A DNA stretch of 41,044 bases from a virus: positions 1 through 41,044 of the IMG/VR virus record IMGVR_UViG_3300010037_000001. One strand, given 5' to 3'. Under the pieces are notes generated by a model. That model was not told the DNA's origin and ran no database searches. It saw only the letters and a program-made list of their open reading frames with translations. Below are positions 16,505 through 37,608 of this stretch, in pieces. How positions within the stretch are numbered: the stretch's first letter is position 1; every line of letters starts with the position of its first letter. A program made the translations under genes and the position numbers.

Positions 16505-17443
16505 TTAGTTATAAGATCCTGTAGTTCCATCTGAACCCACTAGACCAGTCGGAGAAGACCAACCATAAGATTCACGATAGTAAGCGTTATAATAAGTAAA
16601 CATTTTTCTTGATTGCTGCCAAGGAGTCATCCAAGTCATAAGAGGAGTTCGGATGAATCTCTTAAGTTTATGTTTACGGCCGATCAAAAACCAAGCATCA
16701 TCGTTACCACCTTCAATTGAACCCAGGTAGGTTGATTGTTTGACGTATAACTGATATTTGCTTGAAAATACATTTGGTCCGTTATTCGCAGACTGAGGAA
16801 CTAACTCAGCTTCAGTAATTTCTACTGCTCGCCTGAAGTTTTTAGGAGCTACCAAAAGAAATTTTGGACGACTTCTTACTTGTCTTCCAGAATGAGATTT
16901 TTGAGCTGACATCAACTGAATGCCTTGATCAAGAGTATCAGGAGTAAGTTTTCCAGTTAATTTATTACTCAAAACTCCCCCAAAATCACGAGGATGATCA
17001 GTATCGAAGAGTGGTTGTCCATCAGCACCAAGATAGGCATTGTCGAAACCATTCCTTAAAATAGAGAAAGCATTGAAGTATTGAGTGTCTTGAGCTGCTT
17101 CTCCCATTTCTCCTACATTTTCCTTGATCAGGCCATAAAGCTGATCTTCCATTTGTTCATAAGTGACAGGAACGCTGTTTGAGAAAGCGACATGAGTATA
17201 AGTTGTCTTATACTTTTCTTCGATATCATCTTCTGGGATATCTTCTTCTTCACCTTTTTCACTAAATCTACCAACACCTCTATTTTCAAGATCATATTCC
17301 GCGTGTTTTTTAGATTTACCGCCATTGAAAATATCTTCAATCTTGGCTTCATCTGGCAACATTTCCATATTATAGGTGTCATAAAACACCTCATTCAGTC
17401 CTTCCTCTATGGTCTCTAGCATCGTCGAATTATTTACTGCCAT
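16505..17443 (-). CDS. Major capsid protein (Mu gpT-like, HK97-fold family)
   Basis: 312 aa, placed after portal and scaffold. The segment NGFDNAYLGADGQPLFDTDHP matches, from memory, the GF..YDGQ.FFDTDHP signature of Mu-type major head subunits. Confidence 0.8.
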   Translation of the reverse strand: MAVNNSTMLETIEEGLNEVFYDTYNMEMLPDEAKIEDIFNGGKSKKHAEYDLENRGVGRFSEKGEEEDIPEDDIEEKYKTTYTHVAFSNSVPVTYEQMEDQLYGLIKENVGEMGEAAQDTQYFNAFSILRNGFDNAYLGADGQPLFDTDHPRDFGGVLSNKLTGKLTPDTLDQGIQLMSAQKSHSGRQVRSRPKFLLVAPKNFRRAVEITEAELVPQSANNGPNVFSSKYQLYVKQSTYLGSIEGGNDDAWFLIGRKHKLKRFIRTPLMTWMTPWQQSRKMFTYYNAYYRESYGWSSPTGLVGSDGTTGSYN

Positions 17444-19333: not shown

Positions 19334-21438
19334 GGAGTGTGTGCATTAATTAATTCGGCTTTTACTTTTTGTACTGGTTCACTTGTCGCCCCCGCAAGTT
19401 TTGCTGGAGGTGCTGTTGGGGGAACTGGCCCTTGCATAGATGCCCCTCCTCCTTCTTGAGGAGCACCTGGTGGTTGCATACCACCTAAGAGTTTTTTCGC
19501 TTCGGATTGAGCCGTTTGATCGCCTTGATCAGTTTCTCCAGTAGTATCAAAAGCTTTTTGCCTATCATAACCATACGCATCCACAAGTTTTTGTAAGCCA
19601 TATTTGAGTGATAAAATAGGTTTAGGTTGTCCTTCTGGTCCTGGTTCCATTGCGCTTCCTGCTACTTCAACATAATCTTTCGCATTTGCTTTTTCAAGTT
19701 CTCTTGAAGCTGCAAAAGTACTTTCCGAAACAACTCGAACAGTTAATTTACCCTTAGATTTAATATAAGCTGGCCTTGCCTGGAAAAACCCAATCTCTTC
19801 TTCGCCTTTTTTCGACATAGTGAGAGATTCACGTGTATATTCACCTTTAGAATTTGGTTTTTCACGAAAATCCATACCTTTGACACGAATTCTACGATAT
19901 TCTACTTTCTTTTCTTTCATTAAAGCTTCTATTTGTTCTGGAGACATTTCTTCCATACCGGCTAAATGTTTGATTAAAGGCTCTGGATAATATTGCTGGA
20001 CTAATTCCATCAACAACCAACCAAGACGTTTATAGCCACGGTTTTCGTTGCGCTTAACGTTCAAATTTAAACGACCTTGAGTAATTTCTCTTCGAATAGC
20101 TGCTACTGTTGCCTGAGTACTTGTATTCATATCAGTGATTTGTCTGAAATCTACACCAGTAGCAAAAATTAGATAATCCATGAGCATACTGATAATTTTA
20201 TCGGTAGATCCGGACATCCCTGGTAGTTCAACATGCACAAAAGCGTCTTTTGGACTTGAGACACGAGTGACTTGGTTCGGACTTAGAATAGTGGCTGTAT
20301 CATCAAACTCAGAATTACTATTATCAAGAAGATTAATCCCTGATCCTGCTTTCTTTTCTTTATCAATTGCGATATTCACAAAAGCATTTATAGCATCACA
20401 AATATTCGCGATACGTTGAGGCTCTCCTTCTCCCACATAAGTATTGAATTGTAGACGATCAATGTAATCAACAAAAGGAAGCTCTTTATGTTTATAAGGG
20501 TTTGCGCCGTGATAGATAATAACTCCATTTGCAATCATCAGGACTTCATCTCTCATCACATTCCAATCCTCAAATACTACCACTTGGTCACTATCATCAG
20601 CCAGAAAGTCTTTATGAATTACTTGGTTATCTATCCCCACAGTTAGCCATTTACCTTTCTGAACTTTATCAATGTTTTTAAAAATTGCTGTGTCTGAAAA
20701 GTATTCAAGAAAAGATCCATAATCGTGTCTTTTTCTCCATTTAAAATATGGAGAATCAGAAACAGTTCGAGATAATGGATGAAGCCAATAATCATCAGGA
20801 TAAATATTCTCTACACAAATATCATCATAAAAAAGAACCTGTTCTGCTTTTGGAAGATCAATATCATACTCAGTATCTTCTGTTTTTTTTGATTCTCTTT
20901 CCTTCTTAGTATCAACCTCACTCACTCCTTCAACTTCTTTCTTGTCTTTATTGGGCATTTTTTCATTTCTTTCAACCCGGTAGACAGTCTTCCAGCCAAT
21001 ATACTGAGCCATATTACCCATTATATCTTTCTCAAAATTCAGGATATCAAACTTATAATCGAGATCCACATACTTTAAATTCCACACATGTTTTTTAACG
21101 ATCTCGTCCATATTTCGAGCGATCACCATATCCTCCTCATACTCAAGAGGCTCATAATTAAAACTTGGAGGAGCTTTCATTTCAGTGGCTCCTTTTGATT
21201 CTATAATCCATTTTACAATAGGAAGTACTACTCCTGATCTACCATCCTCATAAACAAAAGGACGAGCTTCATATCTTTCGATATTTTCTCGCCATTGCTC
21301 TTCATATTGTGACCGAAAACGAATAGCCGTATTCATTTCATCGTCAAACCGCTTTAAAAGATTACGCTCCTGTTCATTCGGTTGCCATAATTTATTATCT
21401 GGTTTTTTGCCAAGTTGGAGATCTTTTACTTCTAGCAA
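19330..21438 (-). CDS. Portal protein
   Basis: 702 aa, immediately after TerL. The acidic/aromatic N-terminal region (RFRSQYEEQWRENIERYEARPF) is typical of portals. The first in-frame ATG is codon 34, so a TTG start at 21438 is implied. Confidence 0.85.
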   Translation of the reverse strand: MLEVKDLQLGKKPDNKLWQPNEQERNLLKRFDDEMNTAIRFRSQYEEQWRENIERYEARPFVYEDGRSGVVLPIVKWIIESKGATEMKAPPSFNYEPLEYEEDMVIARNMDEIVKKHVWNLKYVDLDYKFDILNFEKDIMGNMAQYIGWKTVYRVERNEKMPNKDKKEVEGVSEVDTKKERESKKTEDTEYDIDLPKAEQVLFYDDICVENIYPDDYWLHPLSRTVSDSPYFKWRKRHDYGSFLEYFSDTAIFKNIDKVQKGKWLTVGIDNQVIHKDFLADDSDQVVVFEDWNVMRDEVLMIANGVIIYHGANPYKHKELPFVDYIDRLQFNTYVGEGEPQRIANICDAINAFVNIAIDKEKKAGSGINLLDNSNSEFDDTATILSPNQVTRVSSPKDAFVHVELPGMSGSTDKIISMLMDYLIFATGVDFRQITDMNTSTQATVAAIRREITQGRLNLNVKRNENRGYKRLGWLLMELVQQYYPEPLIKHLAGMEEMSPEQIEALMKEKKVEYRRIRVKGMDFREKPNSKGEYTRESLTMSKKGEEEIGFFQARPAYIKSKGKLTVRVVSESTFAASRELEKANAKDYVEVAGSAMEPGPEGQPKPILSLKYGLQKLVDAYGYDRQKAFDTTGETDQGDQTAQSEAKKLLGGMQPPGAPQEGGGASMQGPVPPTAPPAKLAGATSEPVQKVKAELINAHTP

Positions 21439-23078
21439 GCTGTTCGATATAAAGGAGTAGATTTTTTCTGGATCTTTCTTTCTAAATCTTCCATCCTTTT
21501 TTCGAATTTACTTGAGTCCTGAGGTAGAACCGTTGGTTTCTTTGGCCCACTTGCAGGTTCATTTACCGCAAAATATTCTAAAGCTGTGCGATAATGAGAA
21601 GTCCAATCATGAATTGGTTTATTGTTTGGAGTTGTCGCTTGACTATCTTCCTTTCGCTGTGGTAATCGAGCATTTTCTAGGGCGTCGATGAAATCATATA
21701 AGTTTTTGTGAACTACCAATCTTCTAATCAAGAGTTTAGTTGCATTTACCCTTGTTTTCAAGTCAAATTTTTTCCGGTTCACAATTACGTAAATTCCATG
21801 AGGCTGAAGCTGCTTGATAACTGAAGTCATTGAGGTTTGATTTTTGTTTTCTCCTGTAGGATCCCCAAAATGTATCGCTGGCTGCCAAAGCCTGTGACGA
21901 TTAATCATCTCAAGCTCCATTTCATCATACTTATAATTAAAACCACCAAAAGATTTGATTTCCCCAGTAACAAAAGGAACAAAATAATCAATAGCTTTAT
22001 TTGGCTTTTGATAGGCATCAATAATCCTCACAGTTCCGGTTCGTTTATCAATCTGGAACCAAATAAGTGCGGTTGGATCCGTGCCTCCAAAATCCCAAGA
22101 GACATAAAGGGGTTGAGTTGGATCATACTCCTGAACCTCAAGATAATTTCTTTCACAAAACTCATCATAAACACGCCCTCGAAGAGATTTGTTATAATTA
22201 ATATCTAGTTCCTGAGCTACTTCTTCCTCAGTACGTCTCTCACATTCAAGTCGATACCACTCAGCATCTTTTTTGGGATGCAGTTTCCAGTGAAGAGTTT
22301 GTTTTTTAATTCGGCTCTTGAGTGCCAGTTCTGCAAACTTATTACCTTTTCCGTTTACAGTTGAAGTTGGTATCCGGCATTTAGTTGAGTCTCCCATTGA
22401 ATTCCACGCTGAACGACCGTGAGACCAAAAAGCGAACTCATCTGGCCAAACTACCTTATACCTTCCTTGCCTTGAGAATCTTTCGGTTGGAGCATAGCCC
22501 ACAATTGAGTTACTTCGGGTTTTATTCGTTAGATTCATATAAGCACGATACTTCTGGGGAAGCATCCATTCTGGTGTATTTTGAATAAAAAAATCCAAAC
22601 GACCAAAATGACTGTCCATACTTTCTTTGGTGTCAATCAGATCTTCGATATACGATCCAATAAGTGCACTGAAACCAGTGTCAAACAGCCAATACCAATA
22701 AAGCACCCCCAGAACCATCCAAGAAACACCCATGTCTCGGGATTTCTCAGTAAGCCCGTCCTCTCCTCCATCAATAAGAGTTTTAAGCCAAGCGACATAA
22801 GCATCTTGGAAAGGATAAGTGATAAAGGGAAGTGTTTTCTCATCTACACGAGGATCGTGAGTCCAAAGGATTGCATTGAAAAAATAAAGCATTCCTTCTA
22901 CTCCTTGACTACATTTTTTCAAAACAAATTCTCTCATAGACTCCTCTTCGCATGCTTGATCCAAAAAATATCTCCATTTTAGATTTTCCAAATAATCTTT
23001 TGGAACAATATTAAATTTTGGATCTATAACGGTTTTTGAAGTATTCAGTGATTTGAGTTGGATCAACGGTTTCGCCAT
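21432..23078 (-). CDS. terL: Terminase large subunit
   Basis: 548 aa. It has a Walker-A-like LTEKSRDMGVSW, a Walker-B-like VVWPDEFAFW, and a nuclease-half acidic motif (YVSWDFGGTDPTALIWFQ). The start overlaps TerS by 68 nt, so the true start is uncertain. Confidence 0.9.
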   Translation of the reverse strand: MAKPLIQLKSLNTSKTVIDPKFNIVPKDYLENLKWRYFLDQACEEESMREFVLKKCSQGVEGMLYFFNAILWTHDPRVDEKTLPFITYPFQDAYVAWLKTLIDGGEDGLTEKSRDMGVSWMVLGVLYWYWLFDTGFSALIGSYIEDLIDTKESMDSHFGRLDFFIQNTPEWMLPQKYRAYMNLTNKTRSNSIVGYAPTERFSRQGRYKVVWPDEFAFWSHGRSAWNSMGDSTKCRIPTSTVNGKGNKFAELALKSRIKKQTLHWKLHPKKDAEWYRLECERRTEEEVAQELDINYNKSLRGRVYDEFCERNYLEVQEYDPTQPLYVSWDFGGTDPTALIWFQIDKRTGTVRIIDAYQKPNKAIDYFVPFVTGEIKSFGGFNYKYDEMELEMINRHRLWQPAIHFGDPTGENKNQTSMTSVIKQLQPHGIYVIVNRKKFDLKTRVNATKLLIRRLVVHKNLYDFIDALENARLPQRKEDSQATTPNNKPIHDWTSHYRTALEYFAVNEPASGPKKPTVLPQDSSKFEKRMEDLERKIQKKSTPLYRTAC

Positions 23079-26628: not shown

Positions 26629-26665
26629 TATTTTTTATTTAGTTTTTCTAGGACTGGTCTTAAAT

Positions 26666-26717
26666 GCCTTGCAACATTAAGTACCGGTGACCACGCAAGG
26701 CAGCCGGTACTTTTTTT
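26666..26717 (+). terminator. Intrinsic terminator with an interleaved competing helix, immediately upstream of the replication genes
   Basis: GTACCGG (26681-26687) pairs with CCGGTAC (26704-26710) and is followed by T7 (26711-26717). GCCTTGC (26666-26672) pairs with GCAAGGC (26695-26701) and interleaves with that stem. Confidence 0.55.
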
Positions 26718-26727
26718 ATGAAACACA

Positions 26728-27594
26728 ATGGAAGATAAACCTCAAATTGAAAACGGATACATTCGAGTGGCAACTGAACTATTTGAGGCATTGACAAAAA
26801 TAAGAATACCAGGTGAAGCTCGACAAATATTTGACTTCATTCTTAGAAAAACTTACGGATTCCAAAAGAAAGAAGATCAAATTGCTCTTTCCCAGTTTTG
26901 TTTGGCTACAGGAATGAAAAAACCTGCTGTAGTTAGAGCTATTAGAAAATGTGAATCAATGAGATTAATCGTTATCAAAAAAGATAACGGCAACATCAAT
27001 TCATATAGTATACAAAAGGATTCTACTCACTGGATTTCGTTATCGAAAAAGATAATATTATCGAAAAAGATAACGAGCGTTATCAAAAAAGATAATCTGT
27101 CGTTATCGAAAAAGATACCCACAATAGATAATACTACAAAAGATAATATTACAATAAATAATACCTCTATATCTCCTATTGGGAATAATTTAGAAATTCC
27201 AAAACAAAAAAAGAAAAATGAAAAAAAAGAAAAAATCGAAAAGACGAAACTTCATCTTCGAATAGAATCTGAGTGTTGGGATAAAAAAATTACATTCGTT
27301 TGTTCCCCGGAAGGATTCATTGCGATCGAGTCTCTTTACCACGAGGAAGATATTTCTCGTCAAGCAGCTAAAGCGTGTGTTTGGACTCACGGCAAAAATC
27401 TTGACTCAGTCCTTCGCCTTACCCGGCTCCAAAAGTTTCTTGAGGATTTCCCTCAAAAAAATTCATCAGTCCCAGATAGACCCCGTAAGCACGCTGATGG
27501 AACCATTAGATCTTTAACCAAAGCAGAATATGAACAACGCCTCAGTGATCAGCGAACCAAAGAAGCTCTTGTTAAGCAAGAAGTTCATGGTTGA
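26728..27594 (+). CDS. Replication initiator, lambda O-like N-terminal domain
   Basis: GYIRVATELFEALTKIRIPGEARQIFDFILRKTYGFQKKEDQIALSQFCLATGMKKPAVVRAIRKCE matches the phage replication protein O pattern. The iteron array lies inside the gene, as in lambda. Confidence 0.8.
   Translation: MEDKPQIENGYIRVATELFEALTKIRIPGEARQIFDFILRKTYGFQKKEDQIALSQFCLATGMKKPAVVRAIRKCESMRLIVIKKDNGNINSYSIQKDSTHWISLSKKIILSKKITSVIKKDNLSLSKKIPTIDNTTKDNITINNTSISPIGNNLEIPKQKKKNEKKEKIEKTKLHLRIESECWDKKITFVCSPEGFIAIESLYHEEDISRQAAKACVWTHGKNLDSVLRLTRLQKFLEDFPQKNSSVPDRPRKHADGTIRSLTKAEYEQRLSDQRTKEALVKQEVHG
26970..27119. repeat. Iteron array (candidate origin of replication)
   Basis: Five 19-bp copies of CGTTATCRAAAAAGATAAY at 26970-26988, 27038-27056, 27056-27074, 27078-27096 and 27101-27119. 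Each copy contains the inverted half-sites TTATC-N6-GATAA. Confidence 0.75.
27201..27250. other. A-rich tract next to the iterons (candidate DNA-unwinding element)
   Basis: The sequence aaaacaaaaaaagaaaaatgaaaaaaaagaaaaaatcgaaaagacgaaac lies about 80 bp downstream of the last iteron. Confidence 0.4.
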
Positions 27595-29972: not shown

Positions 29973-30699
29973 ATTTCTTTTCTTGGACACTGAAACAACG
30001 GGACTCAAGAATCCTCGGATGATCCAGTTAGCCTACTCTACCAACGATCAGCCTCTCGTGAATCTTCGTTACAAACCACCTATCCCAATCGAATTAATGG
30101 CGATGGCTACCCATCACATCACTGAGGAAATGGTAAAAGATCAATTGACCTTTGAAAACAGCATCCAAAAAAACCTCCTCCAAGAGCTTCTTGATCAATC
30201 GGTTATGATCGCTCATAACGCTCAGTTCGACATGATGGTTCTGAAGAACGAAGGGGTTAGGGTGAAGAGCTGGATCTGTACGCAACGTCTTGCAATGTAC
30301 CTTTATGACTTAGAATCATACAAACTCCAGTATCTTCGGTATCATTTTGGTTGCAAGTTCGGAGATCAGAATATCCGAGCTCACGATGCTGAGGGTGATA
30401 TTATTGTCCTCCGTGAGGTGTTTATTTGCCTTTATAACGATTTTATCAAGATGAGTGGACTATCGGAGCCTAAAAAAATTATCGACGCAATTAGGGCCAT
30501 TTCTGAGCGTCCTGGTAAAATCAGAAAATTCACCTTTGGAAAGTACCGGGGAAAATATCTAGCCGAGGTAATGAAAGAGGATCGAGGATACATAGATTGG
30601 CTAATAAAAGAAGAATTAAAAAAAGATGAGGAAGATATAAATACTGATTTGCTTTGGAATCTTCAAAATATCGACAACAAAACTATTTCTGTTCTTTAA
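29962..30699 (+). CDS. DnaQ-like 3'-5' exonuclease (DEDDh) with a small C-terminal domain
   Basis: Exo I is FLFLDTETTGL, Exo II is IAHNAQFDMMVL, and Exo III is HDAEGDIIVL. The C-terminal FTFGKYRGKYLAEVMKEDRGYIDWL resembles the small domain often appended to such exonucleases. Confidence 0.85.
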   Translation: MNNKFLFLDTETTGLKNPRMIQLAYSTNDQPLVNLRYKPPIPIELMAMATHHITEEMVKDQLTFENSIQKNLLQELLDQSVMIAHNAQFDMMVLKNEGVRVKSWICTQRLAMYLYDLESYKLQYLRYHFGCKFGDQNIRAHDAEGDIIVLREVFICLYNDFIKMSGLSEPKKIIDAIRAISERPGKIRKFTFGKYRGKYLAEVMKEDRGYIDWLIKEELKKDEEDINTDLLWNLQNIDNKTISVL

Positions 30700-30716
30700 A
30701 AAATCTGGGGTGGGGG

Positions 30717-30745
30717 TTGACTTCTGTACCTTGCCCCCATATAAT
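30717..30745 (+). promoter_or_regulatory. Consensus sigma-70 promoter of the HNH/RNA locus
   Basis: TTGACT (30717-30722), exactly 17 nt, TATAAT (30740-30745). It is flanked by the inverted repeat TGGGGG (30711-30716) / CCCCCA (30734-30739). The ATG at 30752 starts 6 nt after the -10. Confidence 0.7.
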
Positions 30746-30751
30746 GGGAGT

Positions 30752-31162
30752 ATGAAAAAATGTACATTATGCAAAAATAGAAAAGCTTTATCGGAATTTT
30801 ACAAAGATGCTTATCGTGGTGATGGCTTGATGACAAGGTGTAAGTCTTGTGACATATTTTATCGCCAAGCAAAAAGAATTAAAAATCCAAACACTTATAA
30901 ACTTCGAGATTCTCGCTATTATCAAAGAAATAAAGTGAGAAAAAAGATTTATTTAGAAGGATGGAGAAAGAAAAATAAGCAAAAAATTAAATGCCATACT
31001 GCCGTTAAGATTGCTCTTTTAAAAGGAAGTTTAGTAAAGCAACCTTGCGAAAAATGTGCTGCCAAAGCTGAAGCTCATCATGATGATTATACAAAGCCAT
31101 TAGATGTGAAATGGTTTTGTCGGCGACATCATGCAAGAGAACATGTAAAACTTAATCCCTAA
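30752..31162 (+). CDS. HNH endonuclease (small, with zinc ribbon)
   Basis: N-terminal CTLCKNRKALSEFYKD..GDGLMTRCKSCD and C-terminal CEKCAAKAEAHHDDYTKPLDVKWFCRRHHAREH. I prefer the ATG at 30752 because the track's GTG start at 30710 would lie upstream of the promoter. Confidence 0.85.
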   Translation: MKKCTLCKNRKALSEFYKDAYRGDGLMTRCKSCDIFYRQAKRIKNPNTYKLRDSRYYQRNKVRKKIYLEGWRKKNKQKIKCHTAVKIALLKGSLVKQPCEKCAAKAEAHHDDYTKPLDVKWFCRRHHAREHVKLNP

Positions 31163-31522
31163 AAGTTGGCGCTAAATGCAAACCAAGTACGGCCCTCCTA
31201 GGCAAACGATCGTACCACTGGAAACCCAGCAGGAATACCTATTTGCAAGGGTAGGTTAAGTTCCTCTCGAGAGGGAAGTCATTCTTCAACTCGAGGCCAG
31301 CTCTTAGGGATTAATACTTCGGAAGGAGAGGTGGTTTAATTTAAAACACTGCTAAAAGCAAAACGTTCAATCGTTTACGTTGTGATGCAAGCTCATGACT
31401 TGCCCTCTCCTTCTGGCGTATTAAGTGCCAGAGTCTTAGCGGACTGATTGAAGGAGCGAGCCTGAATAATCAATAAGGCTTATACAACCTCTATTGAGGG
31501 TAATATTTTAACTCCTTCAATC
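31152..31522 (+). ncRNA. Large multi-domain structured RNA candidate (family unassigned)
   Basis: Three closed helical domains are listed in the first finding, for example 31152-31170/31296-31314, 31322-31331/31404-31413 and 31446-31456/31512-31522. Wobble pairs fit only the plus strand. GC is enriched, and no plus-strand ORF of 60 aa or more occurs between 31163 and 31584. Confidence 0.55.
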
Positions 31523-31528
31523 TTTATG

Positions 31529-31605
31529 AGGAAGGTAGCTCAGACAGCAGAGCACCATGGGGTCGACTCTCACGGAGGTCGCAAATGCAATTTTTGCCCT
31601 TCCTC
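31529..31605 (+). tRNA. tRNA-like element, non-canonical (7-bp anticodon-type stem; loop GUCGACU; nominal anticodon CGA)
   Basis: Acceptor stem AGGAAGG (31529-31535) / CCTTCCT (31598-31604), then U8 A9. D-arm is GCTC/GAGC with loop AGACAGCA. The central arm is 31555-31561/31569-31575. The variable region is AGGTC. The T-arm is GCAAA/TTTGC with loop TGCAATT, followed by C-TCCA. It lacks the D-loop GG and the T-loop TTC. Confidence 0.4.
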
Positions 31606-31623
31606 TCCATTAACAACAAAAAT

Positions 31624-31860
31624 ATGTTTTTCAAAAGGAAGATAGAAAAATTGTCACAAGAAATAGATCAACAAAAAGTAAAAACCAAACGAAGACTCTG
31701 GGAACTCAAAAATATTGCTACTGTTCTTGGGGTTGCAAAAGAAACCAAGAGAAAGGAGTTTGCCAAAGAGAGTTTGATTGAAGCGGAGAGCAGATTTAAA
31801 GATTGGAAAAATAACCCTAAGGATGCAGGGAAACATAATAAAAAAAGATTTAGATTTTAA
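31624..31860 (+). CDS. Basic coiled-coil protein
   Basis: I prefer the ATG at 31624 (MFFKRKIEKLSQEIDQQ...). The track start at 31585 lies inside the tRNA-like T-arm. Confidence 0.6.
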   Translation: MFFKRKIEKLSQEIDQQKVKTKRRLWELKNIATVLGVAKETKRKEFAKESLIEAESRFKDWKNNPKDAGKHNKKRFRF

Positions 31861-31862
31861 AA

Positions 31863-32099
31863 ATGATAAAAAAAACTTTTTGTAAAACATGCGATCACAG
31901 TTGCTGGGATAATCAGGGTAATTGTTGTTGTGGGAAAGGAAAAAATCAATTGATTTCTGTTGAAGATATACTCAAAGATCTTAATTTAAATCAGGGGTTC
32001 AGCTGCGATACTTGTTCAGAGTTAGGAGATTTACGAAAAATGATCGCTCACATTGGTCAAAATGCTGGACATGCTATTGTTTTATTCAAAAAAACATGA
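31863..32099 (+). CDS. Cys-rich small protein
   Basis: 78 aa, containing CKTCDHSCWDNQGNCCCGKG...CDTC. Confidence 0.6.
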   Translation: MIKKTFCKTCDHSCWDNQGNCCCGKGKNQLISVEDILKDLNLNQGFSCDTCSELGDLRKMIAHIGQNAGHAIVLFKKT

Positions 32100-34028: not shown

Positions 34029-34066
34029 AAACTAAATAGAGATTTATTAATTATAAAATTTAAATT

Positions 34067-34276
34067 ATGAATAAAAAATCATGGTGGGATACCTACAATC
34101 CTTCTTGTTTACATCAAAACAAGGATTATCCGCCTGGAGCTGACCGTGAACTGATAGGACATGTTAAAAAATGTTTTACCAATGGAGATCATATTAAATT
34201 TTCATTCTTACTTTTTCTCTTAATTTTTGGCCCAGCATTCATAATTATTATGGCAGGAATCAAGTCTGCCTCTTAG
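34067..34276 (+). CDS. Small membrane protein
   Basis: 69 aa with a C-terminal TM segment (FSFLLFLLIFGPAFIIIMAGI). Confidence 0.55.
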   Translation: MNKKSWWDTYNPSCLHQNKDYPPGADRELIGHVKKCFTNGDHIKFSFLLFLLIFGPAFIIIMAGIKSAS

Positions 34277-34319
34277 AAGACGCCAAGCAAAAAATTCTTA
34301 ATAATAACCAGTAAAATGT

Positions 34320-34583
34320 ATGGAAAAATTAATTTTACAAGCAGTTAAATTTGAAGATCAAGAAGACTATTGTCAATTTCAAAAATTATTGGCAAATGGG
34401 AATACTGTTTGGGAATCACGAGACTTAGCAGGTGATTGTCCAGAAGATGCTCTGCTGGATAGAGATATGACCGATGTTTTTGAAATTATTAAGTTAATGG
34501 AGTTAGCGGCTGGTAAAGAAATATTAATTTCACCACTTAAAGAATGTGAAAGTTTAGATGAATTTGAGGATTTTACTTCTTAA
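34320..34583 (+). CDS. Small, strongly acidic protein
   Basis: 87 aa with many Asp/Glu residues and few basic ones (..DQEDYCQ..DCPEDALLDRDMTD..ECESLDEFEDFTS). Confidence 0.65.
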   Translation: MEKLILQAVKFEDQEDYCQFQKLLANGNTVWESRDLAGDCPEDALLDRDMTDVFEIIKLMELAAGKEILISPLKECESLDEFEDFTS

Positions 34584-34594
34584 CCAAAATTCAA

Positions 34595-34990
34595 ATGAGA
34601 TATAAAAAATTTTTACTTGAAAAGGAGCCTTATATTCCTACCAATGGAAATGAAGGATTAAACGTTGTTTCAAATAATATTTCTGAAGAAGAGGCTATGA
34701 AGAATGTAGAAAATTACAATATGATTTTTGGTATTTATTTAACAGTTACAGAACTTTTTGATTGTCAAAATATTATGATGTGTGCTTCAGGCGCCTCAAT
34801 TTTCTTTTCGATACCTCAAAAAGGATGGAAAGAATATACAAAATCTGGACCAGAGATTGAAAGTCCAAAATTGGATAGAGAAAAATTGCAGAAAGCCACT
34901 CCCAATAAAGTTGCTGGTGCTATTATAGATATTTTTTTAGATCGTAAGAAGTGGAACAATAAAGTGTTTTCTAAAGAATTAAAATTCTAA
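34595..34990 (+). CDS. Hypothetical protein
   Basis: 131-aa ORF. Confidence 0.65.
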   Translation: MRYKKFLLEKEPYIPTNGNEGLNVVSNNISEEEAMKNVENYNMIFGIYLTVTELFDCQNIMMCASGASIFFSIPQKGWKEYTKSGPEIESPKLDREKLQKATPNKVAGAIIDIFLDRKKWNNKVFSKELKF

Positions 34991-35468: not shown

Positions 35469-35936
35469 ATGCTTATAAAAAATCTAAAACAATGGCACAA
35501 AATCGTTTGCTCAGAAGAGAATTATATTTGCCGAGTTTGTAAAAAAGATTTCAGTTTTGATCATTATTTTAATGAAGAAGGAGTGAATCAATATGTCTGC
35601 GGACATCATTATCCTCACACTCAAAAAGCCCGACCAGACCTTGTGCTTGAGACGAGTAATGGAGTTTGTATTTGTCTTGATTGTCACACCAAAGCTCATA
35701 AAGGACTTGTACAGATTCCTGAAAAAGAAGAGGTTGAAGAAGGTGATGTTTCATTGAAAAAGAAAATGGATCCAAAGCCATTTATTAACCATATTCTTCC
35801 TTCTGGGCATGGAATAAGGCTCAAAGGCTATGAAAAACTCTGTAAATGTGGATATGTGGCTCAAGATTCTGGGATTTGTATAGCATGCGAGAAAAGACTT
35901 CCTCCAAGCTTTAAATCAGAAAAAAAGAAAAAATAA
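35469..35936 (+). CDS. HNH endonuclease (second copy, different family)
   Basis: CRVC...VCGHHYPHTQKARPDLVLETSNGVCICLDCHTKAH gives the HH...N...CxxCH..H motif. Confidence 0.7.
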   Translation: MLIKNLKQWHKIVCSEENYICRVCKKDFSFDHYFNEEGVNQYVCGHHYPHTQKARPDLVLETSNGVCICLDCHTKAHKGLVQIPEKEEVEEGDVSLKKKMDPKPFINHILPSGHGIRLKGYEKLCKCGYVAQDSGICIACEKRLPPSFKSEKKKK

Positions 35937-37276: not shown

Positions 37277-37580
37277 AACAGAGGGGAGTCAGTTTCCAGA
37301 AATTGATATTAAACTTAAAAAAATTCTGCAAGAACGAATTAAAAACAGAAACAGACGAGGGCGATTCAAACAAACTCTTGCCGACGAATACAAAAGGATT
37401 GCTCTTAAGATTGGGGTAAGCAGTAGAGCTGTAGAGGCATGGGCTAATAACGAGAATAGGATTACTTATTTTAATGCTATCAAGCTAAGAGCTGTGATAA
37501 AAGTTCCTTGGAGGGTTTTGTTTAAGATGAATTTCCAGCCTAGGATCGCAAGAAAGTATAATCATAAAAAAATCTCTTGA
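37266..37580 (+). CDS. HTH DNA-binding protein
   Basis: 104 aa. EYKRIALKIGVSSRAVEAWANNEN looks like a helix-turn-helix. Confidence 0.6.
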   Translation: MPIKTEGSQFPEIDIKLKKILQERIKNRNRRGRFKQTLADEYKRIALKIGVSSRAVEAWANNENRITYFNAIKLRAVIKVPWRVLFKMNFQPRIARKYNHKKIS

Positions 37581-37608
37581 CCACAAATGCCACATGTGTA
37601 TAATGTGG
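37577..37608 (+). promoter_or_regulatory. Sigma-70-like promoter with an overlapping inverted repeat (operator candidate)
   Basis: TTGACC (37577-37582), 16-nt spacer, TATAAT (37599-37604). CCACAT (37590-37595) / ATGTGG (37603-37608) brackets the -10. Confidence 0.6.

What the first reader, a model, noticed from the sequence alone, without database searches (positions are those of the whole stretch)
30717..31609. HNH gene on a perfect promoter runs into a ~370-nt multi-domain RNA fold capped by a tRNA-like module
Promoter and gene (seen):
- TTGACT-17-TATAAT (30717-30745) sits 6 nt before the ATG of a 136-aa HNH gene.
- The HNH stop codon (31160-31162) lies inside an 11-bp helix, TTAATCCCTAA (31152-31162) / TTAGGGATTAA (31304-31314).
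- That helix continues as AGTTGGC (31164-31170) / GCCAGCT (31296-31302), which includes one G.U pair.

Domain 1, enclosed by that helix:
- GTACG 31187-91 / CGTAC 31211-15
- CTGG 31218-21 / CCAG 31226-29
- ACCTA 31237-41 / TAGGT 31252-56
- CCTC 31263-66 / GAGG 31271-74

Domain 2:
- GAAGGAGAGG 31322-31 / CCTCTCCTTC 31404-13
- This encloses AAACG 31361-65 / CGTTT 31372-76 and GCAAG 31387-91 / CTTGC 31399-403.

Linker hairpin: CTGGC 31413-17 / GCCAG 31427-31.

Domain 3:
- GATTGAAGGAG 31446-56 / CTCCTTCAATC 31512-22
- This encloses AGCCT 31459-63 / AGGCT 31476-80 and CCTC 31488-91 / GAGG 31496-99.

A tRNA-like cloverleaf follows at 31529-31605.

Supporting observations:
- The wobble positions are G.U on the plus strand and would be A.C on the minus strand.
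- Hand-counted GC is 42-48% in 31141-31260, against 25-37% in the flanking windows I sampled.
- The plus strand has no ORF of 60 aa or more between 31163 and 31584.
- GAAGGAG / CTCCTTC-type segments recur four times, so alternative or intermolecular pairings are possible.

Interpretation (inference): this is a large ornate RNA co-transcribed with, and structurally overlapping, a nuclease gene. Large phage-associated RNAs such as ROOL and GOLLD are known to sit next to tRNAs. An RNA partner or mobility module for the HNH protein, or a decayed intron, are alternatives. I could not match any family by eye.
Basis: partly seen in the sequence, partly recalled or inferred. Interest (0 to 1): 0.85.

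Follow-up and report, generated by a model that had tools for sequence, protein, structure and literature searches.

The report
Orphan phage structured RNA with tRNA-derived end
A 460-base gene-free stretch of a phage genome folds far more stably than chance into three helix-closed domains, followed by a module clearly derived from a phage threonine-type tRNA. I found no relative anywhere, so it stays an unverified, single-copy candidate RNA and is not a partner of the neighbouring nuclease gene.

Summary
**Observation: confirmed.**
- Every quoted helix is exact.
- 31152-31608 folds at -163 kcal/mol, z about -6.7, with 0 of 150 shuffles as stable. It is the most structured spot in the 41-kb window.
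- It has no ORF of 30 aa or more in any frame, and is 43-46% GC against about 30-35% in the flanks.

**tRNA-like end (31528-31609).**
- ARAGORN and Rfam do not detect it.
- A covariance model built only from 15 real phage tRNAs (D-loop AGACAGCA, T-loop UGCAAYU, mostly Thr) hits it at 59 bits, E = 9e-17.
- The acceptor stem (8 bp), D arm, variable loop and T arm are intact and an encoded U-CCA follows. The anticodon arm is aberrant, so the module is probably not a decoder.
- Domain 2 is the second-best hit of that model in the whole window (E = 0.22), a weak hint that it is also tRNA-derived.

**Interpretation: partly supported.**
- No Rfam family matches (ROOL, GOLLD, introns, HEARO, tmRNA).
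- In the three closest HNH homologues whose downstream DNA was fetched, the next gene follows immediately, which argues against an RNA-nuclease partnership.
- No RNA homologue was found in any collection or related phage locus, so covariation could not be tested.

**Best reading:** a transcribed array of tRNA-region-derived stable RNA domains, with the tRNA-like end acting as an RNase P/CCA processing punctuation mark.

Interest is moderate.

The parts
30717..30745 (+). Sigma-70-like promoter TTGACT-17-TATAAT. The -10 element ends 6 nt before the HNH ATG, which implies a leaderless or near-leaderless mRNA (inference).
   Evidence: 11/12 match; 5 such sites in the window against 1.65 +/- 1.6 in shuffles, and I judge about 4 of the 5 to lie between ORFs. 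Function not tested.
30752..31162 (+). 136-aa HNH-like (His-Me finger) endonuclease gene. Its last 11 nt form the 5' strand of the D1 closing helix.
   Evidence: phrog_2340 'endonuclease' at 7.5e-25, plus weaker endonuclease VII and HNH phrogs; no Pfam hit; invariant CxxC...HHDDY..P...W.C...H motif, and the last residues (KLNP) fall in a variable tail; a confident model (pLDDT 90) whose best PDB matches are HNH nucleases PacI and Hpy99I, but these are not significant (E > 1).
31152..31314 (+). Domain 1. An 11+7 bp closing helix encloses four hairpins, including ACCUAUUU-GCAA-GGGUAGGU (a GNRA loop with three U.G pairs).
   Evidence: exact helices; pair probabilities 0.89-0.99; z = -6.1 on plus against -4.6 on minus, 0 of 300 shuffles as stable.
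31322..31413 (+). Domain 2. A 10-bp closing helix GAAGGAGAGG/CCUCUCCUUC encloses four hairpins. The last one (GCAAG-CUCAUGA-CUUGC) abuts the 3' strand the way a T arm does. It may be a degenerate tRNA-like paralogue.
   Evidence: z = -3.7; second-best hit of the tRNA-class model in the whole window (11.2 bits, E = 0.22, full length); alignment to the tRNA-like module scores z = 2.7 over shuffles.
31413..31445 (+). Two short linker hairpins, CUGGCG/UGCCAG and AGUCU/GGACU.
   Evidence: pair probabilities 0.48 and 0.91; z = -2.1, which is weak.
31446..31522 (+). Domain 3. An 11-bp closing helix GAUUGAAGGAG/CUCCUUCAAUC encloses two hairpins.
   Evidence: pair probabilities 0.97-1.0; z = -5.5, 0 of 300 shuffles as stable.
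31528..31609 (+). tRNA-derived module.
- Acceptor stem: 8 bp, 31528-35 paired with 31598-605.
- U8 A9.
- D arm: GCUC-AGACAGCA-GAGC.
- Aberrant anticodon arm, 31555-31575. It reads either as a 5-bp stem with an A.C mismatch and an 11-nt loop, or as a 7-bp stem with the 7-nt loop GUCGACU.
- Variable loop: AGGUC.
- T arm: GCAAA-UGCAAUU-UUUGC.
- 3' end: U (31606) then CCA (31607-31609).
   Evidence: a model built from 15 phage tRNAs, without the window, hits 31529-31608 at 59.4 bits, E = 9e-17, full length, with the anticodon loop as an 11-nt insert; alignment. ARAGORN and Rfam tRNA fail to detect it; the cloverleaf is -26.4 kcal/mol against an MFE of -29.0.
31624..31860 (+). Next ORF (78 aa, unknown function). 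It starts 14 nt after the CCA, behind an A-rich, SD-less leader typical of this phage.
   Evidence: gene call in the identical contig L006; all genes of the phage lack Shine-Dalgarno sequences; no family hit for the 78-aa product; the longer 91-aa reading gave only a weak hit to an unknown-function phrog.

Best explanation
**What it is**
- 31152-31609 is a transcribed, non-coding array of helix-closed RNA domains that grew out of a phage tRNA-gene region.
- The last unit is a tRNA of the phage 'AGACAGCA / UGCAAYU' class. It keeps everything needed for the L-shaped upper half: an 8-bp acceptor stem, the D arm, the variable loop, the T arm and an encoded U-CCA.
- Its anticodon arm is no longer canonical, so it most likely does not decode.

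**How it most likely works (inference)**
- The stretch is transcribed with the HNH gene from the promoter at 30717 and reads through into the downstream genes.
- The tRNA-like unit serves as a processing punctuation mark. RNase P cuts at its 5' side and tRNA 3'-end enzymes act at its 3' side.
- This would release an upstream RNA whose 3' end is protected by domains 1-3. That RNA is either the HNH mRNA with a structured tail or a free RNA of about 370 nt.
- It would also leave a downstream mRNA with a short, unstructured, A-rich leader.
- Domains 1-3 would then be stable RNAs of still unknown role, comparable to the small stable RNAs in the phage T4 tRNA cluster.

**What is shown and what is inferred**
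- Shown: the fold statistics, the absence of coding potential, the tRNA ancestry of the last unit, and the lack of conserved linkage to HNH.
- Inferred: transcription, processing, stability and any function.
For: - **Fold significance and localisation:**
- **No ORFs and raised GC in a tightly packed, AT-rich phage genome:**
- **tRNA ancestry of the last unit:**
  - The independent class-tRNA model gives 59.4 bits, E = 9e-17.
  - The alignment shows identity at U8, A9, the D arm, the variable loop and the T loop, while the stems differ.
  - That pattern is what selection on tRNA shape, rather than recent copying, would produce.
- **Orientation:** the module is on the same strand as all flanking genes, and D1 has a GNRA loop closed by three U.G pairs on the plus strand only.
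- **Weak hints that D2 is tRNA-derived:**
- **Transcription context:** a near-consensus promoter upstream and no convincing terminator up to the next gene.
- **Leader of the next gene:** it starts 14 nt after the CCA with the phage's usual SD-less A-rich leader.
- **Precedent:** polycistrons of irregular tRNA-like sequences have been seen in metatranscriptomes (PMC5389517). That T4's tRNA region holds stable RNAs and homing endonuclease genes is my own knowledge, not tested here.
Against: - No homologue was found, so there is no covariation support. The region could be a lineage-specific accident.
- The minus strand folds nearly as well.
- No expression data exist.
- The RNase P and CCA processing steps are pure inference.
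- The D2 resemblance to a tRNA is marginal (E = 0.22).
- Domains 1 and 3 have no detectable relation to tRNA, apart from a weak D3 alignment score (z = 2.6).
- The promoter match is only modestly above chance.
Confidence: 0.45

Rival explanations
1. A decaying remnant of a phage tRNA gene cluster. The domains would be pseudo-tRNAs and spacer DNA with no present function, lying next to a free-standing homing endonuclease gene that often lives in such clusters.
For: - The module has a non-canonical anticodon arm and fails standard tRNA detectors.
- D2 gives only a faint tRNA signal.
- The element is an orphan, absent from TerL relatives and exonuclease-relative phage loci.
- The association of HNH genes with tRNA regions is my own knowledge.
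Against: - Decay produces mismatches, but here the closing helices are perfect over 10-11 bp and nearly all helices are intact.
- In the module only the anticodon arm is aberrant. The acceptor stem (8/8), D arm (4/4), T arm (5/5) and all tertiary-core bases are intact.
- GC is enriched by about 12 points over the genome.
- 460 nt of junk would be unusual in a phage with almost no intergenic space.
Confidence: 0.2
2. A cis-acting leader or regulator for the downstream operon. The folded tRNA-like unit and domains would control read-through, RNA stability or translation initiation of the genes starting at 31624, or would insulate them from HNH translation.
For: - Position between a promoter-proximal ORF and a run of small early genes, with no terminator.
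- The module ends 14 nt before the next ATG.
- The repeated GAAGGAG/CUCCUUC strands allow alternative pairings.
Against: - No riboswitch, attenuator or antitermination family matches.
- A forced alternative pairing cost about 12 kcal/mol more than the MFE, although my helix register in that test was off by one.
- The ensemble is well defined rather than bistable.
- 460 nt is far larger than known phage leaders.
Confidence: 0.1
3. A DNA-level element: an origin, a recombination or endonuclease recognition site, or MITE-like insertions bounded by terminal inverted repeats.
For: - Both strands fold equally well.
- D1 has 19-nt arms that are 17/19 identical, resembling terminal inverted repeats (and my reading).
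- An HNH nuclease gene is adjacent.
Against: - The likely origin lies inside the RepO-like gene at 26641-27142, which has strong inverted repeats.
- There are no direct repeats or iterons here, and no further copy of any domain in the window.
- The spacers of 70-140 nt are full of nested hairpins, which DNA sites do not need.
- The last unit is an oriented, full-length tRNA-shaped gene.
- No integrase is detectable, so an attP reading has no support.
Confidence: 0.1
4. One reading: an RNA partner, guide or mobility module that works with the HNH protein, in the manner of the omega/HEARO RNAs of IscB and TnpB.
For: - The RNA starts inside the 3' end of the nuclease ORF, as TnpB omega RNAs do.
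- The two are probably co-transcribed.
Against: - The protein is a 136-aa His-Me finger nuclease with no RuvC or RNA-binding domain.
- Homologues at 39-44% identity have no non-coding downstream region.
- The overlap involves only a variable C-terminal tail.
- No HEARO or omega RNA match was found.
Confidence: 0.05

Closest known systems
Phage tRNAs of the 'AGACAGCA D-loop / UGCAAYU T-loop' class (mostly tRNA-Thr UGU, also CAU and UGC) found here in IMG/VR contigs
   Same: The module shares U8 A9, the whole D arm, A26, an AGGUC-type variable loop, a 5-bp T stem with a UGCAAUU loop, and the U-CCA end, all at the same spacing.
   Different: It has an 8-bp rather than a 7-bp acceptor stem. Its anticodon arm is 4 nt longer and carries an A.C mismatch. 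It reads either as an 11-nt loop, or as a 7-bp stem with loop GUCGACU, which has a pyrimidine at position 37. ARAGORN and Rfam RF00005 detect almost all of the class members but not the module.
Small stable RNAs in the phage T4 tRNA gene cluster (own knowledge), and polycistrons of irregular tRNA-like RNAs (PMC5389517)
   Same: Non-coding structured RNAs lie next to tRNA-type units, in a region that also hosts a homing-type endonuclease gene. Maturation is presumed to use tRNA-processing enzymes.
   Different: There is no sequence relation. Only one tRNA-type unit is present here, and it is not canonical. The domains are larger and are closed by unusually long perfect helices. Nothing about expression is known.
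tRNA-like 3'-end processing modules such as MALAT1-mascRNA, and mitochondrial tRNA punctuation (own knowledge)
   Same: A tRNA-shaped unit without decoding ability sits at the 3' side of a long structured RNA and just before the next coding unit.
   Different: Those are eukaryotic or organellar systems. No cleavage has been shown here.
ROOL and GOLLD large ornate RNAs of phages and prophages
   Same: A large multi-domain non-coding RNA in a phage, next to a tRNA-type gene.
   Different: No match to either covariance model, even at E <= 10. At about 370 nt it is shorter than the 500-800 nt I recall for those RNAs. No family of homologues exists.
HEARO / omega RNAs of IscB and TnpB nucleases
   Same: A structured RNA beside, and overlapping the end of, a nuclease gene.
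   Different: The nuclease is a 136-aa HNH-like protein without a RuvC domain. The RNA lies downstream of the nuclease gene and is absent from the protein's homologues. No model match was found.

Membership tests
ROOL (Rfam) / GOLLD (Rfam) | Match to the family covariance model (conserved multi-domain core) | tested here: not met
   cmscan of the window at gathering thresholds gave 0 hits. The permissive scans of 30600-31900 and 31140-31530 at E <= 10 gave only chance snoRNA, SR1 and miRNA hits.
Group I / group II intron | Conserved catalytic core detectable by a covariance model, and interruption of a host gene | tested here: not met
   No intron model hit at E <= 10. The upstream exonuclease is complete, with RNase_T and ExoX-like_C domains. 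The downstream ORF is a separate small gene.
HEARO / omega RNA with an IscB or TnpB nuclease | An adjacent IscB or TnpB-type protein (RuvC domain, 400 aa or more) and a match to the RNA model | tested here: not met
   The protein is 136 aa with no Pfam domain and only endonuclease/HNH phrogs. No RNA model hit.
Canonical tRNA | Cloverleaf with a 7-bp acceptor stem, a 5-bp anticodon stem and a 7-nt loop; detection by ARAGORN or Rfam RF00005 | tested here: not met
   ARAGORN finds 0 genes. RF00005 does not report it even in a 106-nt search at E <= 10. The anticodon arm is 21 nt long with an A.C mismatch.
Phage tRNA class with D-loop AGACAGCA and T-loop UGCAAYU (descent from it) | Full-length match to a model built from class members only; shared tertiary-core nucleotides | tested here: met
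   Model R2 (15 tRNAs, window excluded) hits 31529-31608 at 59.4 bits, E = 9e-17, model positions 1-76. The invariant columns are shared.
tmRNA | A tRNA-like domain formed by the 5' and 3' ends, enclosing pseudoknots and a tag reading frame | tested here: not met
   ARAGORN tmRNA search gave none, and no Rfam tmRNA family hit. The tRNA-like unit here is contiguous and encloses only 21 nt.
Bacterial Y RNA (YrlA type) | Match to the Rfam model; a neighbouring Rsr (Ro60) gene | tested here: not met
   No Rfam hit. No Ro-like protein appeared among the annotated ORFs.
HNH / His-Me finger endonuclease (the ORF) | A beta-beta-alpha-metal fold with CxxC...HH...N/...H motifs | tested here: inconclusive
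   - Profile: phrog_2340 'endonuclease' at 7.5e-25, and an HNH phrog at 7.6e-4.
- Motif: conserved CxxC/HHDDY/W.C..HH.
- Pfam and PDB: no Pfam hit and no PDB sequence relative.
- Fold: the best fold matches are the HNH enzymes PacI and Hpy99I, but E > 1.
Sigma-70 promoter | -35 and -10 hexamers at 17-nt spacing; transcription start shown experimentally | tested here: inconclusive
   The sequence is an 11/12 match. There are 5 such sites in the window against 1.65 +/- 1.6 expected. No transcription data are available.
Conserved structured RNA family (any) | Homologues with compensatory base changes in the helices | tested here: inconclusive
   No homologue was found, so covariation could not be assessed.
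- nhmmer and the D1 covariance model were run against about 1.2 Mb of related loci.
- blastn was run against 50,697 phage records.
- Pattern scans covered the viral, metagenome and genome collections.

The most novel reading that the evidence does not exclude
This is the founding example of a new kind of phage RNA: a multi-domain, tRNA-derived scaffold. Its tRNA-shaped end and tRNA-like domains would mimic tRNA upper halves. They could sequester or mislead host tRNA-binding factors, such as anticodon-nuclease defence systems, RNase P, the CCA-adding enzyme or EF-Tu. Alternatively, the RNA could self-assemble through its interchangeable GAAGGAG/CUCCUUC strands. The host may belong to the Patescibacteria (CPR), on the weak evidence that the best exonuclease homologues carry Patescibacteria names.
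Probability: 0.1. Interest if true: 0.8.

Novelty: new variant of a known kind. Interest (0 to 1): 0.45.

Why it matters
**If the RNA is real**
- It would show a phage turning a tRNA gene region into a large, very stable non-coding RNA. One tRNA copy would be kept only for its shape.
- That is a possible route by which ornate phage RNAs arise.
- It would also be a bacterial parallel to tRNA-like processing signals known from eukaryotes and organelles.

**A practical blind spot**
- The module scores 59 bits against its own tRNA class, yet ARAGORN and the Rfam tRNA model do not detect it.

**Limits of the present case**
- It rests on a single sequence, with no expression data and no covariation.
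- For now it is a good candidate for RNA-seq and for model-based searches of larger collections, not an established discovery.

Tried and rejected
**Rfam**
- Gathering thresholds on the whole window, and three permissive local scans: nothing relevant.

**Anchoring on the HNH protein**
- IMG/VR yielded 3 loci, and the 5.8-billion-protein search yielded 13 homologues.
- I fetched the contigs of the four closest homologues: no downstream RNA.

**Anchoring on the upstream exonuclease**
- The best homologues are only about 46% identical, and those that carry a source name are mostly called Patescibacteria.
- 80 phage loci were fetched with a profile.
- nhmmer, the D1 model and a scan for gene-free structured gaps found nothing related. 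L047:4657-5145 looked promising but is a terminator/operator region.

**Anchoring on the large terminase**
- Relatives at 55-62% identity were fetched with 10-kb flanks.
- They share only the structural module and hold no RNA or tRNA-like hit. The 1.3-kb gap in L146 is unrelated.

**Exact or degenerate DNA patterns**
- The D-arm patterns found real tRNAs, not the RNA.
- The pattern for an expanded anticodon arm found nothing in IMG/VR. In the metagenome collection it found only a normal tRNA-Met.
- Three D1 patterns gave chance or coding hits only.

**Other searches and side checks**
- blastn against GenBank phages: no match.
- A second cluster of inverted repeats at 34063-34685 is coding and not structured.
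- attP idea: no integrase found.
- The GGAGG-N6-ATG start at 31585 inside the module is rejected as a real Shine-Dalgarno site, because no gene in this phage uses one.
- Literature searches found no description of this element or of the D-arm sequence.
Full report
**Context**

The window is a tailed-phage genome of about 41 kb.
- Structural genes lie on the minus strand: large terminase 21432-23078, portal and major head protein.
- Replication and early genes lie on the plus strand from 26.7 kb onwards. They include RepO-like, DnaC-like, two exonucleases, NinB-like, a sigma-like regulator and a RuvC-like protein. An amidase gene lies on the minus strand near the right end.
- Genes are tightly packed.
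- None has a Shine-Dalgarno sequence; the leaders are A/T-rich.
- The phage is essentially a singleton.
  - The exonuclease next to the finding has no homologue above about 46% identity among 5.8 billion protein clusters. Of the best hits that carry a source name, most are called Patescibacteria.
  - The only other copy of the locus is an identical contig from the same run.

**Checking the observation**

| Region | z-score, plus strand |
|---|---|
| 31140-31620 (-164.2 kcal/mol vs -122.9 +/- 6.4) | -6.5, 0 of 100 shuffles as stable |
| D1 | -6.1 |
| D2 | -3.7 |
| D3 | -5.5 |
| D1-D3 | -6.8 |
| HNH ORF, each half | -0.2 |
| Downstream ORF | -1.0 |

- In a sliding scan of the entire window, this is the most structured position.
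- Pair probabilities are mostly 0.9-1.0, so the ensemble is well defined.
- Three of about ten perfect 10-bp-or-longer inverted repeats in the 41 kb lie side by side here.
- No ORF of 30 aa or more exists in any frame across 31163-31523.
- GC is 43-46%, against about 30-35% around it.

Two caveats apply.
- The promoter is an 11/12 match. Five such sites occur in the window against 1.65 +/- 1.6 in shuffles.

**The tRNA-like end**

ARAGORN finds no tRNA in the window. Rfam's tRNA model does not report the module even in a 106-nt search at E <= 10.

The 16-nt D arm, GCTCAGACAGCAGAGC, led to the key result.
- It recurs in IMG/VR contigs, and about twenty of those hits are bona fide tRNAs.
- They are mostly Thr(UGU), with some CAU and UGC anticodons.
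- They come from phages of very different GC content.
- All share the D loop AGACAGCA and the T loop UGCAAYU.

A covariance model built only from 15 of these tRNAs hits window 31529-31608 at 59.4 bits, E = 9e-17, full length. The alignment shows the following.
- Shared with the class: U8, A9, the D arm, A26, the AGGUC variable loop, the T loop and the U-CCA end.
- Different from the class: the stem sequences.
- This is the signature of a unit kept for its tRNA shape.

The exceptions are as follows.
- The acceptor stem is 8 bp long.
- The anticodon arm is 21 nt long.
- That arm reads either as CCAUG/CACGG (with an A.C mismatch) and an 11-nt loop, or as a 7-bp stem with the loop GUCGACU. In the second reading U33 is present but position 37 is a pyrimidine (and direct reading).
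- The module is thus tRNA-derived and very probably not a decoder.
- No second example of such an expanded arm was found in IMG/VR or the metagenome collection.

**The three domains**
- D1 (163 nt), D2 (92 nt) and D3 (77 nt) are each closed by a perfect 10-11-bp helix and contain 4, 4 and 2 hairpins.
- The closing strands of D2, D3 and the module are variations of GAAGGAG/CUCCUUC.
- D2's last hairpin, GCAAG-CUCAUGA-CUUGC, abuts its 3' strand exactly as the module's T arm, GCAAA-UGCAAUU-UUUGC, does.
- D2 is the second-best hit of the tRNA-class model in the whole window, at 11.2 bits and E = 0.22. It also aligns to the module better than shuffles do (z = 2.7).
- This is weak evidence that at least D2 is a diverged duplicate of a tRNA-type unit.
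- D1 shows no such relation.
- Its hairpin ACCUAUUU-GCAA-GGGUAGGU has a GNRA loop and three U.G pairs that exist only on the plus strand. D1 also folds better on plus than on minus (z = -6.1 against -4.6).
- Together with the oriented tRNA unit, this favours a plus-strand RNA.

**Is it a known family?**

No.
- Rfam 15 gives nothing at gathering thresholds, and only chance hits at E <= 10.
- That excludes ROOL, GOLLD, group I/II introns, RNase P, tmRNA, HEARO and Y RNAs, at least at the sensitivity of those models.
- An intron is also excluded by context, because the upstream exonuclease is complete.

**Is it tied to the HNH gene?**

The ORF is plausibly a small His-Me finger (HNH-like) nuclease.
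- For: strong 'endonuclease' phrog hits and a conserved CxxC...HHDDY...W.C..HH motif.
- Inconclusive: Pfam and PDB sequence searches find nothing, and the fold search is not significant.

Its homologues argue against a partnership.
- In the three closest homologues whose downstream DNA was recovered (39-44% identity), the next gene follows immediately.
- A fourth locus has a 258-nt gap that looks coding.
- The overlap of the RNA with the ORF covers only four codons of a variable tail.
- An RNA-protein partnership is therefore not supported. A free-standing endonuclease gene sitting beside tRNA-type genes is a common phage arrangement (my own knowledge).

**Search for homologues of the RNA**

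- No similarity was found in GenBank phages.
- None was found in 80 phage loci carrying the exonuclease family, in contigs of the closest terminase relatives, or in loci carrying the tRNA class. These were searched with nhmmer and a D1 covariance model.
- D1 sequence patterns in the viral and genome collections gave only chance hits.
- The terminase relatives share only the structural module; the early region of this phage is unique.
- Covariation, the test that would settle the matter, is therefore impossible with these data.

**Most likely mechanism (inferred)**
- Transcription from the promoter at 30717 yields a leaderless HNH mRNA that continues through the domains into the downstream genes. 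No convincing terminator lies in between.
- The tRNA-shaped unit is recognised by RNase P and by 3'-end and CCA enzymes, and so acts as punctuation.
- The upstream product ends a few nucleotides after the 11-bp helix of D3 and would be protected from 3' exonucleases.
- The downstream mRNA begins with the short A-rich leader that SD-less genes of this phage use.
- What D1-D3 do beyond stabilisation is unknown.
- I give this reading a confidence of about 0.45.

| Rival explanation | Confidence | Main argument for or against |
|---|---|---|
| Decaying tRNA-cluster remnant | 0.2 | Against: perfect helices and selective preservation of the tRNA core |
| cis-regulatory leader | 0.1 | |
| DNA-level element | 0.1 | Against: the likely origin lies in the RepO-like gene at 26641-27142, and no integrase is present |
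| HNH partner RNA | 0.05 | Against: absent from homologues |

**Verdict**
- This is a real and striking sequence feature and a credible candidate for a novel phage non-coding RNA built from tRNA-region material.
- It is an orphan, with no evolutionary or expression support.
- Interest is moderate (0.45). It would rise sharply if homologues with covariation, or a processed transcript, were found.

Noticed in passing
Loci L013, L016, L018, L019, L021, L022, L024, L027, L028, L032-L034, L036, L040, L041, L004, L005, L125 (for example L013:1749-1824): A distinct class of phage tRNAs, mostly Thr(UGU) but also CAU and UGC anticodons. All share an invariant D arm GCUC-AGACAGCA-GAGC, which lacks the usual GG, and a T loop UGCAAYU, which has G where U55 normally sits. 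They occur in phages from about 37% to over 60% GC. This suggests a co-varied elbow contact. ARAGORN misses some of them (L004, L005, L021).
   Followed up: partly
Window, all gene starts (for example 29962, 31624, 33125, 16505-17443 minus strand): No gene of this phage has a Shine-Dalgarno sequence; the leaders are A/T-rich. GGAGG-like strings occur almost only inside the structured RNA region. Together with the Patescibacteria-named best exonuclease homologues, this hints at an unusual host translation-initiation mode.
   Followed up: partly
Window 26641-27142: Strongly structured DNA (z = -4.8 and -4.5) with perfect 10-bp inverted repeats (26641/26844 and 27053/27142), lying just upstream of and within the 5' half of the RepO-like gene. 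This is probably the replication origin.
   Followed up: no
Window 35469-35936: A second, unrelated HNH-endonuclease-like ORF (phrog_119, E = 2e-6) in the same early region.
   Followed up: no
Window 30706-30739: A G/C hairpin (TGGGGG ... CCCCCA) encloses the -35 hexamer and spacer of the promoter in front of the HNH gene. It could be an operator, or a transcript-end structure of the upstream gene.
   Followed up: no
Window 37577-37604: A second near-consensus promoter (TTGACC-16-TATAAT) in an intergenic gap. The leader behind it is not unusually structured (z = -0.2).
   Followed up: yes
L146:7134-8432 and L145:7365-8463: Phages with a related terminase (55-56% identity) have gene-free regions of 1.1-1.3 kb at the divergent junction, rich in UGUCAA-type repeats and hairpins. 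They are unrelated to the finding.
   Followed up: partly
Window 31309-31316 and 31418-31425: AUUAAUAC / GUAUUAAG could extend the D2 closing helix across a 4x4 internal loop. That pairing would compete with the D1 closing helix and the first linker hairpin. A forced alternative fold cost about 12 kcal/mol more than the MFE, but my helix register in that test was off by one.
   Followed up: partly
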